Source: Candidatus Heimdallarchaeota archaeon | GTDB lineage: Archaea; Asgardarchaeota; Heimdallarchaeia; JABLTI01 | DNA: 16,534 nt | Assembly (NCBI GenBank): GCA_030614005.1 | Contig: JAUWKS010000069.1 | Coordinates: forward strand, 1 to 16,534 | Reading direction: 5' to 3' | Part shown: positions 4,895-16,534 of the stretch, in pieces | How the letters are laid out: every line of letters starts with the position of its first letter | Position numbering within the stretch: position 1 is the stretch's first letter | Position numbers and translations under genes: made by a program | Notes under the pieces: model-generated | Databases searched by the model: none | Seen by the model: the letters and a program-made list of their open reading frames with translations, nothing else | Told to the model about the DNA's origin: nothing

Positions 4895-5743
4895 ATGTAC
4901 AGTTACGTATCACTAAAAGTTGATTGCCCTCTTTGCGGGAAATCTTTAATGGATTCTGAAGTGCATGTAGATGACATTCCGAGTATTAAATTAAATATAT
5001 CCGAGAATGGTGAACGAGGTACGATAAACTTAAGCTCGTTCTATGGGAGTTATAATTATGAATGTGATATTGACATTCATGATGAATTAATCTATCAATT
5101 CTATTGTCCACACTGTATTGAAAATCTTAATTCTGAAGAAGAAAACTGTGACGTATGTTCTTCACAAGCAGTTACTTTGAAAATTAGAGAAGGTGGAGAA
5201 GTAAGGTTTTGTCCAAGAGCAGGTTGTAAAAATCACAATGTGGAATTTGTTGATCTTTCAAATGTTCTAAATTACTTAAAACAGAATATTGAGAAACCAG
5301 AGATTATTGAAATAAATAGCGCCGAAGAAAAAGCTCTCCAAAAAGAGTTAATTAGAAGCGGCACTTTCTTACGAATATACTGCCCTCATTGTAAAAAGAG
5401 TTTAGTCGAGAAAAATTCAGTCATGTTCAAAATTGTAAACCAAAAAAATGAGAAAGGTTATTTGACATTGAGCCCCTATCTGAACGTTTTTGCAGAGAAA
5501 TCTACAATCTTCGTTCCAAATGGTGCTGTTGCAAGTGATATCCTGTGTCCATTCTGTGAAAAATCATTGGTAGATCCAGAAGATTTATGCCAAGAATGTA
5601 AATCACCTACAGTAAATGTCAATGTTGCTGCTGTAAGAAAAATGATTGATTTTCATTTCTGTTCAATGAAAGGCTGCCATTGGCATAGTCTTAGTCAAGA
5701 AGATTTGCATCACGTTTTGTTGGAAGATAGTCTCAGTTGGTAA
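4895..5743 (+). CDS. Cys-rich hypothetical protein A, tandem duplication of an 8-Cys/1-His metal-binding domain
   Basis: 282 aa with two repeats of CxxC-x~50-CxxC-x10-CxxC-x17/20-Cx4Cx2H (C11-H114 and C163-H264). SD present; colinear paralog at 12428-13288. Confidence 0.9.
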   Translation: MYSYVSLKVDCPLCGKSLMDSEVHVDDIPSIKLNISENGERGTINLSSFYGSYNYECDIDIHDELIYQFYCPHCIENLNSEEENCDVCSSQAVTLKIREGGEVRFCPRAGCKNHNVEFVDLSNVLNYLKQNIEKPEIIEINSAEEKALQKELIRSGTFLRIYCPHCKKSLVEKNSVMFKIVNQKNEKGYLTLSPYLNVFAEKSTIFVPNGAVASDILCPFCEKSLVDPEDLCQECKSPTVNVNVAAVRKMIDFHFCSMKGCHWHSLSQEDLHHVLLEDSLSW

Positions 5744-9799: not shown

Positions 9800-10657
9800 A
9801 TGTATGAAATTGTAGAAAAATATGAAGAAGTTCCAAATGTTCATCGTTTAGTTGTAAGAGAACCAAATATAGCCGCAAAAGCTCAACCAGGACAATTTGC
9901 AATTTTAATGGCGGACGAACAAAGTGAACGTGTGCCTATTTCAATAGTTGACACCAAAGATGATACATTTACAATGTTTATACTTGAACTAGGGATATCC
10001 TCTGCAAAAATCGTAAATATGAAAGAAGGAGATACGCTAGAAGCTGTTACTGGACCTCTTGGTATGCCTGCAGATTTAGGTAAATACGGTAGGGTTGTTC
10101 TTGGTGGAGGATGCTATGGCATTGGTGCTATCTATCCACTTGCGAGAGCTTTGAAAGAGCTTGGAAATGAAGTAGTAACGATAATAGAAGCACGAAGTGA
10201 TTATCTACTATATTTCCAAGAAGAATTGAAAGCAGTTTCGGATGAGTTTTTTGTTGCAACTTCTGATGGCACAGAAGGAACAAATGGACATGTACAAGAT
10301 GTTTTAGTAAAATTGATCCGAGATGGAGAAAGATTTGATCATGCAAAATTCATCGGATGTACGTATATGATGATGAATTGTTCGCATATTACATCACCAT
10401 ATAGGATCCCAACAAAAGTAGCATTGAACACAATAATGTTAGATGGTACAGGCATGTGCGGTTGTTGTCGAGTTTCTGTTGAAGGTGAAACAAAATTCGC
10501 TTGCGTTGATGGCCCAGAATTTGATGGGCATCATGTTGATTGGGATGAATTAATGAAACGAAAATCCTCCTACCTAATGGAGGAAATGCTTGCTTATCAA
10601 ACAGCACCCCATACATGCAAAGCATTAGAAAAAGCTTATTCTGGTGATTCAAAATGA
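9800..10657 (+). CDS. nfnA: NfnA (NfnS/SudB/PyrK-like) small FAD/[2Fe-2S] subunit, divergent copy 1
   Basis: PGQF, ERVPISIVD, GPLG and DGTGMCGCCRV...FACVDGPEFDG; GGTGA SD overlaps the upstream stop. Confidence 0.9.
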   Translation: MYEIVEKYEEVPNVHRLVVREPNIAAKAQPGQFAILMADEQSERVPISIVDTKDDTFTMFILELGISSAKIVNMKEGDTLEAVTGPLGMPADLGKYGRVVLGGGCYGIGAIYPLARALKELGNEVVTIIEARSDYLLYFQEELKAVSDEFFVATSDGTEGTNGHVQDVLVKLIRDGERFDHAKFIGCTYMMMNCSHITSPYRIPTKVALNTIMLDGTGMCGCCRVSVEGETKFACVDGPEFDGHHVDWDELMKRKSSYLMEEMLAYQTAPHTCKALEKAYSGDSK

Positions 10658-12147
10658 GCAAAAAGAAATCCCCCGCCCCTAAAAAAGAAAATGCAAAGCA
10701 ATCACCAAAAGATAAACCTGCTGAAAAACCTAAACGACCTCCAAGACCACCTCGCACAAAAATGCCAGAGCAACCCCCTGATATTCGAATAAAAAATTTT
10801 GTTGAGGTTCCATATGGTCTAACCCCTGAAGAAGCACAACTTGAAGCTGCTAGATGTATACAATGCAAACGACCGAAATGCGTAGAGGGTTGTCCTGTAA
10901 GTGTCCAAATACCTGAATTCATAGCTCTCATAAAAGACGGGCATTTTGCAGAAGCAGCTAGTAAGATAAAAGAAACAAATGTTTTACCTGCTGTTTGTGG
11001 TCGAGTTTGTCCGCAAGAAACACAATGTGAAGAAACCTGTATTTTAGGTCGTCGTGGTGAACCCGTGGCAATCGGTTATTTGGAAAGATTTTGCGCAGAT
11101 TATGAAAGGTTGGGTGGACATATTAAACTCCCAAAGAAGAAGAGACCCAATGATAAGAAAGTAGCAATTGTCGGCTCAGGACCCGCAGGTTTGACTGTAG
11201 CTGGTGATCTCTCATTGCTCGGTTACAAATTAACAATTTTTGAAGCATTTCACAAAGGTGGTGGAGTACTCGTTTATGGTATACCCGAGTTTAGATTGCC
11301 TAAGGAAATTGTTGAAACCGAAATAAACTATTTGGAACGTCTTGGTGTTGAGATTAAATACAATCACGTTATTGGTATGTGTAAATCTATAAACGAACTT
11401 CTGACAAAAGATGGTTTTGACGCCGTATTTATTGGTGTTGGTGCAGGACTACCGAGATTTTTGAACATTCCAGGGGAGAATCTAAATGGAGTATATTCAG
11501 CAAATGAATACCTTACTCGTTCGAATTTGATGAAAGCTTATCTTTATCCTACGTACAATACACCTATTATGAAAGGAAGAAAAGTAACTGTTGTAGGTGG
11601 AGGAAATGTGGCTATGGATTGTGCTCGAACCGCACTGAGACTCGGTTCAGATAAGGTAATGTTGGTCTATCGTAGAGCGAGAGAGCAAATGCCTGCAAGA
11701 GCTGAGGAAGTACATCATGCTGCTGAGGAGGGCATTGATTTTAGATTGCTTTCAAATCCCGTTGAAATTATTGGTGATGACACCGGAGTAGTGAAGCGAA
11801 TCAAATGCCAAAAATATCAGTTAGGAGAACCAGATGATTCTGGTAGAAGAAGACCTTTACCTATTGAAGGAGAATATTTTGAATTAGAAACTGATTTGGT
11901 GATCATTGCAATAGGGAATAATGCAAACCCCCTCATAAAAGCTACAACTCCCGATATTGAAACGAATAAATGGGGTAATATTATCGTAGATGAATTTGGT
12001 CGTACAAATAAAAATTTCGTCTATGCCGCGGGAGATATTGTCACAGGTGGAGCAACAGTTATCTCAGCAATGGGCGGTGGGAGAAAAGCTGCAACAGGTA
12101 TTCATAGAGATCTAATGGGAATAAAGGATGAAGATGTCCAAGATTAA
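10654..12147 (+). CDS. nfnB: NfnB (NfnL/SudA/GltD-like) large subunit, copy 1, with Lys/Pro-rich N-terminal extension
   Basis: RCIQCKRPKCVEGCP, CGRVCPQETQCEETC, GSGPAG, YGIPEFRLPK, GGGNVAMD, VYRR (NADP-type) and GDIVTGGATVISAM. ATGA overlap with nfnA. Confidence 0.93.
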   Translation: MSKKKSPAPKKENAKQSPKDKPAEKPKRPPRPPRTKMPEQPPDIRIKNFVEVPYGLTPEEAQLEAARCIQCKRPKCVEGCPVSVQIPEFIALIKDGHFAEAASKIKETNVLPAVCGRVCPQETQCEETCILGRRGEPVAIGYLERFCADYERLGGHIKLPKKKRPNDKKVAIVGSGPAGLTVAGDLSLLGYKLTIFEAFHKGGGVLVYGIPEFRLPKEIVETEINYLERLGVEIKYNHVIGMCKSINELLTKDGFDAVFIGVGAGLPRFLNIPGENLNGVYSANEYLTRSNLMKAYLYPTYNTPIMKGRKVTVVGGGNVAMDCARTALRLGSDKVMLVYRRAREQMPARAEEVHHAAEEGIDFRLLSNPVEIIGDDTGVVKRIKCQKYQLGEPDDSGRRRPLPIEGEYFELETDLVIIAIGNNANPLIKATTPDIETNKWGNIIVDEFGRTNKNFVYAAGDIVTGGATVISAMGGGRKAATGIHRDLMGIKDEDVQD

Positions 12148-12189: not shown

Positions 12190-12427
12190 ATCACTTTTAG
12201 CTTATCCATTATTGAGTAGCTAATAATCTGAGATTAAATTAAAATGTTTTTAATATTAACTTGTCATTGGATACTTAAACCAATTAAATTACTATTTATT
12301 TAGACACATACATATTATTTTTATAGTATAACCGTGAAGATAATTTGAATTGATAATCTCAACATCTCTCTCAAAAAAGAGGTCCAATCTAAATGCTCGT
12401 TTTAATAAAAATTAAAGGAGATTGAAA

Positions 12428-13288
12428 ATGCACGACTTTATAGCACTAAAACTAAATTGTCCGCTCTGTGAAAAATCACTAATGGACACTCAAACATTAA
12501 TCGATAATCTACCCGGAGTAAAATTAAATATATCCTTTGATGATCAACAAGGAGTGATTCATCTGAGCGCTATTTATGGTAGCTATAATTATACTACCAA
12601 CATCAAAATTCCTTTAGGTAAAGAAGCTACTTTCTCTTGTCCCCATTGCAAAGAACCAATTGTTTCTGAAATAAAATGCGAGGTATGTTCTGCTCATTCT
12701 GTTCCATTGAAAATCGAAGATAATGGAATTGTTAGAATATGTTCTCGTGCCGGTTGTAAAAACCATTATGTGGAATTTGAAGATTTGTCCCATGCTCTAG
12801 AACACTTCTATGTGTATTTTGATTATGGTGATGCAAGCAGAGTAAAGAAACCATTAACAGAATCCAATGCGACACCAGATGCTGATAAAGAAATAGTGAA
12901 ATCAGGTACATTCCTTAGAACATATTGCCCTCATTGCGAAGACAGCCTCTATAAAAATAGAGCAATTGAATTTAAGATAACTGGCAAAGATGGAGAAGAA
13001 GGTATATTACAATTAAGTCCCTTTCTCAATGTGTTTACAAACGAATCAACTTTTTACATTCCCGAGGGAGAACCTGTAAAGAATGTTAGATGTCCTCATT
13101 GCGATGAAAGTCTTTTGCGTAAAGGTGAGGATTGTCCAGAATGTGGAGAAGCAATTGTAAGTGTATCTGTTGCTGCCCTATCAAAAATAATTGATTTCTA
13201 TTTTTGTTCAAAGAAAGGGTGTCATTGGCATGGAATGAGTCAAGAAGATATAGATGATATAATCATTGAGGATAGCAGTGAGTGGTAA
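12428..13288 (+). CDS. Cys-rich hypothetical protein B, paralog of protein A (two 8-Cys/1-His domains)
   Basis: Same ligand pattern twice and colinear with 4895-5743. AAAGGAG at 12414-12420 favours the ATG at 12428 over the TTG at 12422. Confidence 0.9.
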   Translation: MHDFIALKLNCPLCEKSLMDTQTLIDNLPGVKLNISFDDQQGVIHLSAIYGSYNYTTNIKIPLGKEATFSCPHCKEPIVSEIKCEVCSAHSVPLKIEDNGIVRICSRAGCKNHYVEFEDLSHALEHFYVYFDYGDASRVKKPLTESNATPDADKEIVKSGTFLRTYCPHCEDSLYKNRAIEFKITGKDGEEGILQLSPFLNVFTNESTFYIPEGEPVKNVRCPHCDESLLRKGEDCPECGEAIVSVSVAALSKIIDFYFCSKKGCHWHGMSQEDIDDIIIEDSSEW

Positions 13289-13291
13289 TAA

Positions 13292-14119
13292 ATGCATCAA
13301 ATAATTCGTAAACAAGAAATGGCAAAAGGTACAATTGTACGATTTGATGTTCGTGCTCCAGAAATAGCAAAAAAAGCAAAACCTGGACAATTTGTGATTG
13401 TAAGACTTACGGAAACTGGTGAAAGAATACCACTAACAATTGCAGATAAGGACAGCTTTGAAGGGTATATAACACTCATTTTTCAGGTAGTTGGAAAAAC
13501 AACTGCAATAATGAGAACGTTAAATGAAGGTGACGCAATAAAGGACCTTGTTGGGCCACTAGGAAAACCAGCAGATATACAAAAAGTTGGCACAGTAATA
13601 ATGGTCGGTGGTGGAACTGGTGTCGCAATATTACATCACATTGCGAAAGCATTCAAAGAAGCAGGTAATACTGTGATTAGCATTATCGGTGCACGCGAAA
13701 AAGACTTGTTAATCCTTGAAAACGAAATGAGAATAATTTCCGATGAACTGGTTATAACTACTGATGATGGAAGCTATGGACAACTTGGTTTTGTTACAGA
13801 GCCCTTACAAAGATATCTAGATGAACGTTATGACATTAAGGAAGTATATGCTATTGGTCCAATTCCAATGATGAAATTCGTTTGCCGATTGACAAAGAAA
13901 TATAATGTACCAACAATGGTCAGCCTTAATCCAATAATGATTGATGGCACCGGCATGTGCGGTGGTTGTCGTGTGACTGTTGGAAACGAAACAAAGTTCT
14001 GCTGTGTTGATGGTCCTGACTTCAATGGGCATGAAGTAGACTTTGATGAACTAACAAAACGAAATTCTATGTATCTTAAGGAAGAAAAAGATGCACTATT
14101 ATTTTCAATAAGAGGTTAA
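13292..14119 (+). CDS. nfnA: NfnA small subunit, canonical copy 2
   Basis: PGQFVIVR, ERIPLTIAD, GPLG, VGGGTG, IIGAR, TTDDG, IGPIPMM and SLNPIMIDGTGMCGGCRV...CVDGPDF. Confidence 0.94.
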   Translation: MHQIIRKQEMAKGTIVRFDVRAPEIAKKAKPGQFVIVRLTETGERIPLTIADKDSFEGYITLIFQVVGKTTAIMRTLNEGDAIKDLVGPLGKPADIQKVGTVIMVGGGTGVAILHHIAKAFKEAGNTVISIIGAREKDLLILENEMRIISDELVITTDDGSYGQLGFVTEPLQRYLDERYDIKEVYAIGPIPMMKFVCRLTKKYNVPTMVSLNPIMIDGTGMCGGCRVTVGNETKFCCVDGPDFNGHEVDFDELTKRNSMYLKEEKDALLFSIRG

Positions 14120-14123
14120 ACCA

Positions 14124-16007
14124 ATGGTAGATTATGATGTAAAATATCTAAAATTTAAAACCTACCTGAACACCTATTGTCCGCACTGCAGAAATAGCTT
14201 TAACAGAAAAGAAAAAGAAATGGACAAACTCAAGTTCATAGGTGTCTATAAAGGTGAAGATTTTGAATTAACAATAAGCGCTTATCTAGACGTTTTTGAG
14301 GCTCAAGCTTCAATACCTTTGAAAGAAGGAATGATTCTTGAAGATTGCAAATGCCCTCATTGCAAACAAAGTCTTGTGACCTCTGAAAAGAAATGTGGAG
14401 AATGCGGCTCTGCTGTAGGTGAAGTAATTATCAGTGCCTTTTCAAAACTAATTCCTTTCTTCACTTGTTTGAAATATGGTTGTGAATGGCATGGCTTAAC
14501 TAAAGCGGATGAACGAAGAATCAAACTAAAAATTCCTAGACAAGAAATGCCCGAACAAGATCAAGTACTAAGAATTCATAATTTCAATGAGGTACCCTAT
14601 GGACTAACCACTGAATTAGCTTTATTAGAAGCTGGTAGATGCTTACAATGCAAGCAACCAAAATGTGTTGAAGGTTGTCCAGTAAATATTGATATCCCTG
14701 AATTTATTCGATTAATCGCTGAAGAGAAAATTGAAGATGCAGTAATGAAAGTAAAAGAAACAAACCTTTTTCCAGCAATTTGTGGTCGAGTCTGTCCACA
14801 AGAGAATCAGTGTGAAGAACTTTGTATTTTAGGAAAGCGAGATTATCCCGTTGCTATTGGTCATCTTGAGAGATTTATTGCTGATTATGAACGTCGTATG
14901 GATTTCAGGAAATTACCCAGAATTGAAGCGAAAAACAATAAACGAATAGCTGTTGTCGGGTCTGGACCTGCTGGTTTAACCGTTGCAGCTGATTTAATTC
15001 AATTGGGTTACAGCATAACAATTTATGAGGCACTTCACGAACCTGGTGGGGTACTCGTTTACGGCATCCCTGAATTTCGATTGCCAAAATCAATTGTTCA
15101 TTATGAAATTGAGTTCTTAAAGAGTCTTGGATGTCGAATTGAAACAAATCATGTGATTGGTTATATCTATAGCATTGCTGAATTGCTTGAAAATTACGAT
15201 GCAGTATTTTTAGGTGTCGGTGCAGGTTTACCACGATTTATGAATATTACAGGTGAAAATCTGTGCAATGTGTTTTCTGCTAATGAATATCTAACCCGAA
15301 TGAATCTCATGAAAGCGTACAAATTTCCCGAATATGACACTCCAATGCCCGAAGGTAATGATATTGTTGTGATTGGTGGTGGAAACGTAGCAATGGATTG
15401 TGCTAGAAATGCAAAACGAACCGGAGCAATAAATGTTACCGTTGTCTATCGTCGATCGAGAAAGGAATTACCTGCAAGAAATGAAGAAATTCGTCATGCA
15501 GAAGAAGAAGGCATTCATTTCAAGTTGCTAACGAATCCAGTTAGATTTGTAGGTGATGATCGAAATTGGTTGAAAGGAATAGAATGTGTTCTGATGGAAC
15601 TTGGTGAACCTGATGATTCCGGGAGAAGAAGACCTATCCCAATTGAGAATTCAAACATAACTATACCCTGTGATATAGCAATTGTTGCTATTGGTAATAG
15701 ACCAAATCCTATTCTCTTCAATACGACACCCAATTTACAAGGCAATAAATGGGGTTGTATAGAAGTTAATCAAGAAACAATGGAAACATCGATAGAGTAT
15801 GTTTATGCTGGAGGAGATATTGTTACTGGAGCAGCAACAGTAATCTCTGCTATGGGTCAAGGACGTATCGCAGCAAATGCAATGCATAAAAAATTGTCTA
15901 GACCTGCGAGTAAAACAAAACCCAAGCAAAAACCTGAAAAAGCTGTAGCGACTACTCCAAAACCCAAACCAAAAGCTAAATCTACATCTACCCGAAAGAA
16001 AATTTAG
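14124..16007 (+). CDS. nfnB: NfnB large subunit, copy 2, fused to an N-terminal 8-Cys/1-His domain and carrying a Lys/Pro-rich C-terminal tail
   Basis: Residues 19-123 repeat the Cys-rich domain. From about residue 138 it has all NfnB motifs (RCLQCKQPKCVEGCP, CGRVCPQENQCEELC, GSGPAG, GIPEFRLPK, GGGNVAMD, VYRRS, GDIVTGAATV). Confidence 0.93.
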   Translation: MVDYDVKYLKFKTYLNTYCPHCRNSFNRKEKEMDKLKFIGVYKGEDFELTISAYLDVFEAQASIPLKEGMILEDCKCPHCKQSLVTSEKKCGECGSAVGEVIISAFSKLIPFFTCLKYGCEWHGLTKADERRIKLKIPRQEMPEQDQVLRIHNFNEVPYGLTTELALLEAGRCLQCKQPKCVEGCPVNIDIPEFIRLIAEEKIEDAVMKVKETNLFPAICGRVCPQENQCEELCILGKRDYPVAIGHLERFIADYERRMDFRKLPRIEAKNNKRIAVVGSGPAGLTVAADLIQLGYSITIYEALHEPGGVLVYGIPEFRLPKSIVHYEIEFLKSLGCRIETNHVIGYIYSIAELLENYDAVFLGVGAGLPRFMNITGENLCNVFSANEYLTRMNLMKAYKFPEYDTPMPEGNDIVVIGGGNVAMDCARNAKRTGAINVTVVYRRSRKELPARNEEIRHAEEEGIHFKLLTNPVRFVGDDRNWLKGIECVLMELGEPDDSGRRRPIPIENSNITIPCDIAIVAIGNRPNPILFNTTPNLQGNKWGCIEVNQETMETSIEYVYAGGDIVTGAATVISAMGQGRIAANAMHKKLSRPASKTKPKQKPEKAVATTPKPKPKAKSTSTRKKI

Positions 16008-16234: not shown

Positions 16235-16534
16235 ATGACAAAACTATACTTTTTCTATTGTCAAGAATGCGATAAATTGACACCCATTTTTGAGGCTCAA
16301 ATGAGTTGGATAGATCAAACAGGTAAGGTAGGATTACGGCTAACATTTGAGGGAGAACCTGATGGTGAATATACCGGTGAATGGGAAACAGTCATCATCC
16401 ATGATGCAATGTGTATAAAATGCAATTTAGTATATCAAATTATTATAGGAGATTTCTCCTACAAACTAAAAGAACAAGTAATAGATGATCAGAGTACAAG
16501 TTTATTTGTAAGAATGAAAGATTTTGAGTACGAA
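16235..16534 (+). CDS. Hypothetical protein with two CxxC pairs (zinc-ribbon-like), partial at the right edge; not in the supplied ORF track
   Basis: My translation is MTKLYFFYCQECDKLTPIFEAQMSWIDQTGKVGLRLTFEGEPDGEYTGEWETVIIHDAMCIKCNLVYQIIIGDFSYKLKEQVIDDQSTSLFVRMKDFEYE: 100 codons with no stop in AT-rich DNA. Confidence 0.65.
   Translation, partial: MTKLYFFYCQECDKLTPIFEAQMSWIDQTGKVGLRLTFEGEPDGEYTGEWETVIIHDAMCIKCNLVYQIIIGDFSYKLKEQVIDDQSTSLFVRMKDFEYE

What the first reader, a model, noticed from the sequence alone, without database searches (positions are those of the whole stretch)
14124..14534. Fusion of the Cys-rich domain to the N-terminus of NfnB (Rosetta-stone link)
Seen: residues 19-123 of the 627-aa NfnB2 are a type-2 copy (YCPHC...CKCPHC...CGEC...CLKYGCEWHG), joined by about 15 residues to the N-terminal Fe-S domain. 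Established: the N-terminal 2x[4Fe-4S] domain of NfnB is the low-potential exit to ferredoxin. Inference: the domain is tethered beside the ferredoxin-reducing branch, the best in-sequence evidence that it acts in electron transfer or gating rather than being a bystander gene.
Basis: partly seen in the sequence, partly recalled or inferred. Interest (0 to 1): 0.72.

Follow-up and report, generated by a model that had tools for sequence, protein, structure and literature searches.

The report
Eight-cysteine module fused onto NfnB
The large subunit of an electron-bifurcating NADPH/NADH/ferredoxin enzyme (Nfn) in this Heimdall-type archaeon starts with an undescribed ~136-residue, eight-cysteine metal-binding module. 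The same fusion, always next to a free two-module protein, occurs in hundreds of anaerobic bacteria, so it marks an unrecognised three-part version of a well-studied enzyme.

Summary
Residues 1-136 of the 627-aa NfnB2 (14124-14531) are a copy of the type-2 half of the two stand-alone Cys-rich proteins in the window (38% identity, E 1e-29 and 9e-27).

There is no free 15-residue tether. The module runs straight into NfnB's own N-terminal arm, and that junction is nearly invariant.

The fusion is not an assembly artefact:
- It occurs in 290 protein clusters.
- It occurs in 194 species genomes, mostly Bacteroidota, Cloacimonadota and Ignavibacteriota, plus one Heimdall family.
- 78 of the 80 fetched loci have an intact reading frame.
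- Contigs from three studies bridge the junction.

Every locus with enough upstream DNA (63 of 63) carries the cassette two-module protein, nfnA, module-nfnB. By sequence, NfnB-type Fer4_20 is the only fusion partner found.

The Rosetta-stone link to Nfn is therefore strongly supported. An electron-transfer role is not shown:
- The metal is unknown.
- One four-Cys site is lost in some lineages.
- The only weak similarities are to zinc ribbons.
- AlphaFold does not place the module confidently.

My best reading is a two-metal, probably zinc, docking module that makes this Nfn a three-component enzyme. A rubredoxin-like relay remains a live rival.

I found no Pfam or NCBIfam model, no solved structure and no paper for the module. 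This scan had already noted the module in other genomes.

The parts
14124..14531 (+). Eight-Cys module, residues 1-136 of NfnB2. It is all-beta with one C-terminal helix (127-135).
   Evidence: BLASTP against the type-2 halves of the stand-alone proteins. Alignments. AlphaFold model with pLDDT 73.8. No Pfam or NCBIfam hit.
14178..14363 (+). Proposed metal site A: C19 (14178-80), C22 (14187-89), C77 (14352-54) and C80 (14361-63).
   Evidence: Present wherever the aligned stretch covers them, apart from isolated substitutions in three divergent, mostly partial hits (P0141, P0187, P0203). Kept in P0140, which lost the other four Cys together. The pairing is inferred, not measured.
14394..14492 (+). 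Proposed metal site B: C91 (14394-96), C94 (14403-05), C115 (14466-68) and C120 (14481-83), with neighbouring W122 and H123 (14490-92).
   Evidence: The Cys are invariant in 47 fused homologues. H123 is only nearly invariant; it is N in P0084. The site is degenerate or lost in P0140, P0205, P0147, P0154 and P0155.
14532..14570 (+). Junction: NfnB's own N-terminal arm (IPRQEMPEQDQVL, residues 137-149).
   Evidence: PDB NfnB chains align from residue 134-139. Nearly invariant. Low pLDDT in the full-length model.
14571..14900 (+). Fer4_20 domain with the two [4Fe-4S] motifs (residues 150-259).
   Evidence: Pfam PF14691, E 6e-42. Both motifs given in PMC6405883 (RCx2Cx4Cx3CPV and GRVCPQExQCx3Cx13Gx2ER) are present.
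14943..15863 (+). FAD/NADPH Rossmann part of NfnB2 (residues 274-580).
   Evidence: Pfam PF07992, E 9e-33. TIGR01316 scores 581 bits against a cut-off of 472. 4ylf_B matches at E 9e-157.
15900..16007 (+). Lys/Pro-rich C-terminal tail (residues 593-627) and stop codon.
   Evidence: pLDDT below 50. The bacterial homologues checked are about 594-613 aa and so lack most of this tail.
13292..14119 (+). nfnA2, the small subunit, probably translationally coupled (4-nt gap).
   Evidence: NF004862, E 2e-121. The DGTGMCGGCR...CCV motif is present.
12422..13288 (+). Stand-alone two-module protein CysB (type-1 plus type-2). The likely start is the ATG at 12428. It has a conserved C-terminal EDSxEW tail.
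   Evidence: 16 Cys, 2 His and the terminal Trp are invariant in 36 sequences. Upstream of nfnA in 63 of 63 loci.
4895..5743 (+). Second stand-alone two-module protein, CysA, at the head of the Bfu-core/nfnA1B1 operon.

Best explanation
NfnB2 is a canonical NfnB (NfnL) large subunit. Its first ~136 residues are an integral, conserved module that binds two metals through two Cys4 sites. Site A is C19/C22/C77/C80. Site B is C91/C94/C115/C120, next to W122 and H123.

The module arose as a copy of the type-2 half of the free two-module protein. It is welded, without spacer, onto NfnB's N-terminal arm. Together with that free protein (CysB) and NfnA it defines a distinct three-gene Nfn subtype. This subtype is found in Bacteroidota, Cloacimonadota, Ignavibacteriota and one Heimdall family.

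Most likely mechanism (inferred): the metals are structural zinc. The module is a fixed docking platform on the Fe-S end of NfnB. It holds the free two-module protein, or through it another partner, as a third component. In that way it influences what reaches the low-potential exit, rather than carrying electrons itself.

In unfused systems the same job would be done by a free type-2 module, whose conserved acidic C-terminal tail ending in Trp (DSxEW) would take the place of the covalent link.

Shown: homology, fusion, distribution, synteny and invariance of the Cys. Inferred: the site pairing, zinc, docking and any effect on ferredoxin access.
For: - Homology to type-2 halves.
- Canonical NfnB core: TIGR01316 above cut-off, 4ylf_B at E 9e-157 from residue 139, and both [4Fe-4S] motifs (against PMC6405883).
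- Fusion: 290 clusters at 60-92% identity in the module. 194 species genomes. 78 of 80 loci intact.
- Cassette Cys-NfnA-fused NfnB: 61 of 63 loci by strict spacing, and the other two also have it at larger spacing. Gene gaps are mostly 0-20 nt.
- The junction and the 8 Cys are invariant or nearly so.
- Module plus Fer4_20 recurs in divergent lineages: P0176, P0140, P0146 and P0161.
- A free single type-2 module with a DSxEW tail lies directly after NfnA-like and NfnB-like genes in a NiFe-hydrogenase locus.
- The DSxEW tail is conserved in many free forms.
- In favour of zinc and a structural role: the only weak family similarities are zinc ribbons and the MetRS zinc-knuckle region. Site B is lost as a set in fused P0140 and is degenerate in P0205, P0147, P0154 and P0155. 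The predicted fold is beta-rich with knuckles.
Against: - No metal was measured, so Fe(Cys)4 centres cannot be excluded.
- Every other protein in these operons is a redox carrier.
- The site pairing rests mainly on one lineage (P0140). The 10-residue spacing C80-C91 would also suit a nested ribbon.
- AlphaFold does not fix the module against the core (pTM 0.56, residues 131-160 below pLDDT 50), so a 'fixed platform' is not shown.
- The divergent fused lineage P0176 has no free Cys protein nearby. Docking of CysB therefore cannot be the module's only role.
Confidence: 0.45

Rival explanations
1. Redox relay or carrier. The Cys4 sites bind iron as in rubredoxin, or bind clusters. The fused module would extend the low-potential wire of NfnB. 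The free two-module protein, with four centres, would be a dedicated electron acceptor or donor, used in place of or alongside ferredoxin.
For: - Eight invariant Cys per module.
- Fusion to the Fe-S end of NfnB.
- The operons contain only redox proteins.
- Gene spacing suggests translational coupling and therefore stoichiometric expression.
Against: - There is no rubredoxin or Fe-S family hit; the only weak matches are zinc ribbons.
- Site B is dispensable in some lineages.
- From general knowledge, typical rubredoxin potentials lie far above the -513 and -718 mV given for the NfnB clusters (PMC6405883). Such a centre would risk short-circuiting bifurcation.
- No spatial model is available.
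Confidence: 0.25
2. Sensor or gate. The module is a regulatory input domain that senses thiol/metal redox state or a small ligand. It would switch Nfn on or off, or block ferredoxin or nicotinamide access. For example, the terminal Trp of the free form could plug a flavin site.
For: - Predicted-structure look-alikes in the ESM Atlas include clusters fused to histidine-kinase domains and to a NuoE-like subunit, at TM 0.64-0.74. These are leads only.
- The free forms have a conserved acidic tail ending in Trp.
- Weak fold resemblance to RIG-I-like CTD and Yippee zinc domains, which bind ligands.
Against: - The kinase-fused look-alikes were not recovered by a profile search of four genomes carrying the cassette, nor by phmmer over 1.84 billion representatives. 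They may be analogues.
- The fold matches are weak (Z at most 3.0, Foldseek E at least 0.18).
- No ligand pocket was identified.
Confidence: 0.2
3. Assembly factor. The Cys-rich proteins deliver or hold metal or Fe-S clusters during maturation of the Nfn Fe-S domain. The fused copy would be a built-in version of this.
For: - Cys-rich proteins lie next to Fe-S enzymes.
- One free single-module gene sits divergently beside hypF and hypD in a Bacteroidales genome.
Against: - A maturation factor is rarely kept permanently fused with an invariant junction in hundreds of species.
- Canonical NfnAB matures without such a factor.
- There is no similarity to known scaffold families.
Confidence: 0.1

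Closest known systems
NfnAB / NfnSL transhydrogenase (T. maritima 4YLF/4YRY; P. furiosus NfnI 5JCA, NfnII 5VJ7)
   Same: The core of NfnB2 (residues 139-592) aligns end to end with 4ylf_B (E 9e-157), 5jca_L and 5vj7_A. Both [4Fe-4S] motifs, the FAD/NADPH domains and an adjacent NfnA with the Asp/Cys3 [2Fe-2S] motif are present.
   Different: All solved chains begin where the module ends. None has the 136-residue eight-Cys module or a third Cys-rich protein. The 2019 survey of Nfn architectures lists four patterns (A-D), and none of them has this module (PMC6405883).
Zinc-ribbon families (Pfam DZR PF12773, Zn_ribbon_6 PF07191; MetRS zinc-knuckle region within PF09334)
   Same: CPxC knuckles are followed by beta strands. 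The free proteins give sub-threshold hits to these families.
   Different: All scores are below the curated cut-offs. The hits cover only about 25-30 residues (DZR, Zn_ribbon_6) or one half of the protein (PF09334). The fused module itself gives no Pfam hit at all. The 105-residue pattern CxxC-x54-CxxC-x10-CxxC-x20-Cx4CxWH is not modelled by any family.
Nfn-Bfu / StnABC transhydrogenases (9BOV, 9N5U, 8OH5)
   Same: They share a GltD/NfnB-like module. In about 25 of 80 loci the cassette is followed by HydC-HydB and, where the locus extends far enough, a further NfnB/GltD-like ORF. In this window a free Cys protein heads a Bfu-core operon.
   Different: Those enzymes were described as three subunits without this module. 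Here the module sits on a separate NfnSL-type pair.
Beta-tent type zinc domains (RIG-I/LGP2 CTD, Yippee/Mis18, Mss4, MsrB)
   Same: They have two CxxC motifs about 50 residues apart pinning beta sheets, as proposed for site A. They are the top but weak fold matches.
   Different: Z is at most 3.0 and Foldseek E at least 0.18, and there is no sequence similarity. Membership is not established.

Membership tests
NfnB / NfnL (NADPH-dependent GltD-like subunit, TIGR01316) | Whole-protein score above the curated cut-off | tested here: met
   TIGR01316 scores 581.3 bits against a cut-off of 471.75, over residues 150-589.
NfnB / NfnL | Two [4Fe-4S] motifs, RCx2Cx4Cx3CPV and GRVCPQExQCx3Cx13Gx2ER (PMC6405883) | tested here: met
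   Both are present at residues 172-187 and 221-250 of the translation. Fer4_20 gives E 6e-42.
NfnB / NfnL | Adjacent NfnA with FAD/NAD domains and the DGTGMCGxCRx10CV [2Fe-2S] motif | tested here: met
   The ORF 13292-14119 matches NF004862 at E 2e-121. The motif is present.
NfnB / NfnL | Electron-bifurcating NADPH:ferredoxin/NAD+ activity | not testable with these tools
   This needs enzyme assays.
Zinc ribbon (Pfam DZR PF12773, Zn_ribbon_6 PF07191) | Score at or above the Pfam gathering threshold | tested here: not met
   CysB scores 25.9 against 27.3 and 24.3 against 25. NfnB2 residues 1-140 give no hit.
Rubredoxin-type Fe(Cys)4 domain | Match to a rubredoxin family model or to a solved rubredoxin | tested here: not met
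   Pfam and NCBIfam give no hit at E up to 0.01. No rubredoxin appears among the PDB sequence hits at E up to 10. The metal itself was not testable.
Beta-tent zinc domains (RIG-I CTD, Yippee, Mss4) | Clear structural superposition | tested here: inconclusive
   The best match is Z 3.0 (9lov_A, 76 residues, rmsd 6.3). Foldseek E is at least 0.18.

The most novel reading that the evidence does not exclude
The eight-Cys modules would be a new class of mononuclear-iron (or otherwise redox-active) centres. On this reading the fused module and the four-centre free protein form a dedicated output wire and carrier for a distinct class of Nfn. That would be a bifurcating transhydrogenase that talks to a partner other than ferredoxin, shared between FCB-group bacteria and Heimdall archaea.
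Probability: 0.2. Interest if true: 0.8.

Novelty: new variant of a known kind. Interest (0 to 1): 0.55.

Why it matters
NfnAB is the simplest and best-studied model of flavin-based electron bifurcation, and it is treated as a two-subunit enzyme.

In a large group of sediment and digester anaerobes (Bacteroidales, Cloacimonadota, Ignavibacteria) and in one family of Heimdall archaea, the enzyme instead comes as a strictly conserved three-gene set. An unnamed metal-binding module occurs three times in that set, once welded to the subunit that hands electrons to ferredoxin.

If the module docks a third subunit, gates the low-potential exit or carries electrons, then models of Nfn function and the metabolic reconstructions of these organisms are incomplete. 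The family also deserves a domain model, because at present it is annotated only as 'hypothetical' or as spurious MetRS-like hits.

The cassette is present in a genome bin labelled Ignavibacterium album. From general knowledge this species has a cultured type strain, so the question should be testable.

Tried and rejected
- Complex prediction of CysB with NfnB2 (residues 1-592), using own alignments: no answer (score 0.01, controls not run). This is neither for nor against binding.
- Foldseek against the PDB and VIA-align over 48,161 chains with the module model: nothing above Z 3.0 or below E 0.18.
- Profile against PDB sequences: only chance CPHC-motif hits (ResA, glutaredoxin, L44e) at E 0.13 or worse.
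- Atlas feature search restricted to named clusters: no usable hit.
- The histidine-kinase-fused and NuoE-fused look-alikes from the Atlas fold search could not be confirmed by sequence. A profile search of four cassette-bearing genomes found only the cassette copies, plus a few small ORFs in one Bacteroidales genome.
- Apparent 'split' forms were considered as natural fissions and rejected. L085/P0129 and L093/P0138 lie on contigs shorter than 2 kb and read like frameshifts through the junction. L034 has a single in-frame TAG after the junction.
- Sequencing runs: no RNA holder was listed, so nothing can be said about expression.
- The paper on the T. maritima NfnAB structure (PMC4571952), wanted for the position of NfnB's N-terminus, is not held.
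- Literature searches for a description of the module found none.

Full report
**What is in the window**

The + strand carries two operons.
- Operon 1: a 282-aa Cys-rich protein (CysA, 4895-5743), then NuoE-, NuoF- and NuoG-like genes, then nfnA1 and nfnB1.
- Operon 2: a 288-aa Cys-rich protein (CysB, 12422-13288), then nfnA2 (13292-14119), then a 627-aa nfnB2 (14124-16007).

The flanking genes are archaeal: NMD3, aIF2-beta and DUF424. The closest related loci come from Heimdallarchaeota genome bins, at 86% identity in the module.

**The observation**

Residues 1-150 of NfnB2 match the C-terminal halves of CysB and CysA at 38% identity (E 1e-29 and 9e-27). They match the N-terminal halves only weakly. 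Eight Cys and one His align in all five copies. The claim of a type-2 copy at the N-terminus of NfnB2 is therefore correct.

The rest of the protein is a standard NfnB:
- TIGR01316 scores above its cut-off.
- Fer4_20 and Pyr_redox_2 are present.
- Both [4Fe-4S] motifs quoted in PMC6405883 are present.
- It aligns end to end with T. maritima NfnB (4ylf_B, E 9e-157) and with P. furiosus NfnI-L and NfnII.

Those solved chains start aligning at query residue 134-139. The C-terminus of the free module aligns to about residue 141. So there is no 15-residue tether: the module's last helix runs directly into NfnB's own N-terminal arm. That junction (ADERRIKLKIPRQEMPEQ) is nearly invariant in 47 fused homologues.

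**Is the fusion real and general?**

- A search restricted to residues 1-140, among proteins of NfnB length, found 290 clusters. The best 120 are 60-100% identical over the whole module, and all carry Fer4_20 and Pyr_redox_2.
- In 119 of the 120 listed proteins the full Cys/His pattern is present, at residues 19-123 in 117 of them.
- In one genome per species, 194 genomes encode a relative. The best 80 are mostly Bacteroidota, Cloacimonadota and Ignavibacteriota, plus Heimdallarchaeota and one bin labelled Bathyarchaeia.
- In 78 of the 80 loci the module and the NfnB core form one open frame. One exception is cut by the contig end. The other has a single in-frame TAG after the junction.
- Contigs from runs of three studies (cold seep and marine sediment) bridge the junction in this organism's own sequence without indels.

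**The cassette**

In every locus with enough upstream DNA the order is a two-module protein of about 290 aa, then a 274-aa NfnA, then the fused NfnB. This holds in 61 of 63 loci by strict spacing, and the other two show it with larger gaps. Intergenic gaps are mostly 0-20 nt.

The two-module proteins are true homologues of CysB, at 43-51% identity. All 16 Cys, both His and a C-terminal EDSxEW tail with an invariant last Trp are conserved.

The fusion therefore does not replace the free protein. The fused module is a third copy that coexists with it.

About 25 of the 80 loci, all Bacteroidota or Ignavibacteriota apart from the Bathyarchaeia-labelled bin, continue with HydC and HydB. Where the locus extends far enough, a further NfnB/GltD-like ORF follows; in L001 this is a 1231-aa GltD-fused Bfu subunit. 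The Cloacimonadota loci do not continue this way.

**Wider family**

An exhaustive phmmer search of 1.84 billion representatives with the module alone gave 82 hits. These comprise:
- free single modules of about 130-160 aa;
- free double modules of about 270-297 aa;
- divergent module-plus-Fer4_20 proteins: P0176, P0140, P0146 and P0161;
- a few proteins that share only the inner ribbon.

No other enzyme domain was found fused to the module by sequence.

The divergent fused lineage P0176 sits behind a hemerythrin-like gene and nfnA, with no free Cys protein nearby. A free single type-2 module with the DSxEW tail lies directly after NfnA-like and NfnB-like genes in a NiFe-hydrogenase locus.

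In the window's own genome only the three genes of this window carry the module. Among 40 relatives, it was found in 8 of 11 genomes of the same family and in none of the 29 searched from other families of the class.

In a quick tree, the archaeal fused NfnBs form one clade (SH-aLRT support 100). That clade groups with Cloacimonadota (support 98) inside the bacterial diversity. The core is about 70% identical across the two domains of life. This fits a single inter-domain transfer, but the direction is not proven.

**What the module is**

It has no Pfam or NCBIfam model. No solved relative was found by sequence or by fold (best Z 3.0).

The AlphaFold model (pLDDT 73.8) is all-beta, with strands following each CxxC knuckle and one C-terminal helix. 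The only weak similarities are to zinc ribbons and the MetRS zinc-knuckle region, and structurally to Rpb9/TFIIS ribbons and RIG-I-like or Yippee zinc domains.

Among divergent members, C19/C22/C77/C80 are present wherever the aligned stretch covers them, apart from isolated substitutions in three divergent, mostly partial hits (P0141, P0187, P0203). C91/C94/C115/C120 are lost together in fused P0140 and are partly lost in P0205, P0147, P0154 and P0155. H123 varies.

I therefore propose two Cys4 sites, A and B, with B dispensable in some lineages. This pairing is an inference from few cases.

**How it most likely works**

The strict co-occurrence, the likely translational coupling, the spacer-free invariant junction and the exclusive fusion partner together make it very likely (about 0.85) that the module and the free Cys proteins are physical parts of Nfn-type complexes.

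What they do there is open. I favour a structural, probably zinc, docking module (0.45), for three reasons:
- the family resemblances are to zinc ribbons;
- site B is dispensable in some lineages;
- the free forms carry a conserved docking-like tail exactly where the fused form has the covalent link.

A rubredoxin-like relay or carrier (0.25), a sensor or gate (0.2) and a maturation role (0.1) remain possible.

There are 37 residues between the module and the first cluster ligand, and the full-length model leaves residues 131-160 below pLDDT 50, with pTM 0.56. The tools do not return coordinates, so no metal-to-cluster distance could be measured. The complex prediction gave no answer.

**Novelty**

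The 2019 survey of Nfn architectures lists four patterns, none of which has this module (PMC6405883). Reviews and full-text searches gave no description.

This scan had already noted the same module on Nfn operons of other genomes (e1-3342296, e1-2303321, e1-4682605). My results agree with those notes. They add the spacer-free junction, the 63 of 63 cassette count, the site A/B inference, the DSxEW tail, the restriction to one Heimdall family and the grouping with Cloacimonadota.

Noticed in passing
window 12428-13285; also L086:5001-5450 and many free single-module proteins: Free type-2 modules end in a conserved acidic tail with an invariant terminal Trp (consensus LEDSxEW). In the fused form this tail is replaced by NfnB's N-terminal arm. 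It looks like a docking peptide whose target is unknown.
   Followed up: partly
ESM Atlas clusters, no window coordinates: Predicted-structure look-alikes of the module (TM 0.64-0.74) occur fused to a NuoE-like 2Fe-2S subunit (282 aa, Planctomycetota) and to histidine-kinase domains (Ignavibacteriota). They were not confirmed by sequence. If they are real, they widen the module's partners.
   Followed up: partly
window 15900-16004 and 10654-10760: NfnB2 has a Lys/Pro-rich C-terminal tail (residues 593-627) and NfnB1 has a Lys/Pro-rich N-terminal extension (about 35 residues). The bacterial fused homologues are about 594-613 aa, so their C-termini are largely without such a tail.
   Followed up: no
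L004/L007 (bin labelled Bathyarchaeia, DATKZI010000043.1): This locus has the same neighbours (NMD3, DUF424, aIF2-beta, a purine-nucleoside-phosphorylase-family gene) and the same two operons as the window. The order is swapped: the fused cassette comes first, then the Cys protein with the Bfu core and nfnA1B1. The taxonomic label may be wrong, or the island may be shared.
   Followed up: partly
L106:5980-6387 (-) in Bacteroidales genome G043: A free single-module gene (135 aa) lies divergently next to the hypF and hypD hydrogenase-maturation genes, away from the Nfn cassette of the same genome.
   Followed up: partly
window 16235-16534 (+), open at the 3' end: Another small Cys-containing ORF (CxxC near its start, a further CxxC near residue 60) follows nfnB2. 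It has no Pfam or NCBIfam hit and does not match the module.
   Followed up: no
tree; search: The archaeal fused NfnBs form one clade that groups with Cloacimonadota. The module was found in only one family of the class among the genomes searched. This suggests inter-domain transfer of the whole cassette.
   Followed up: partly
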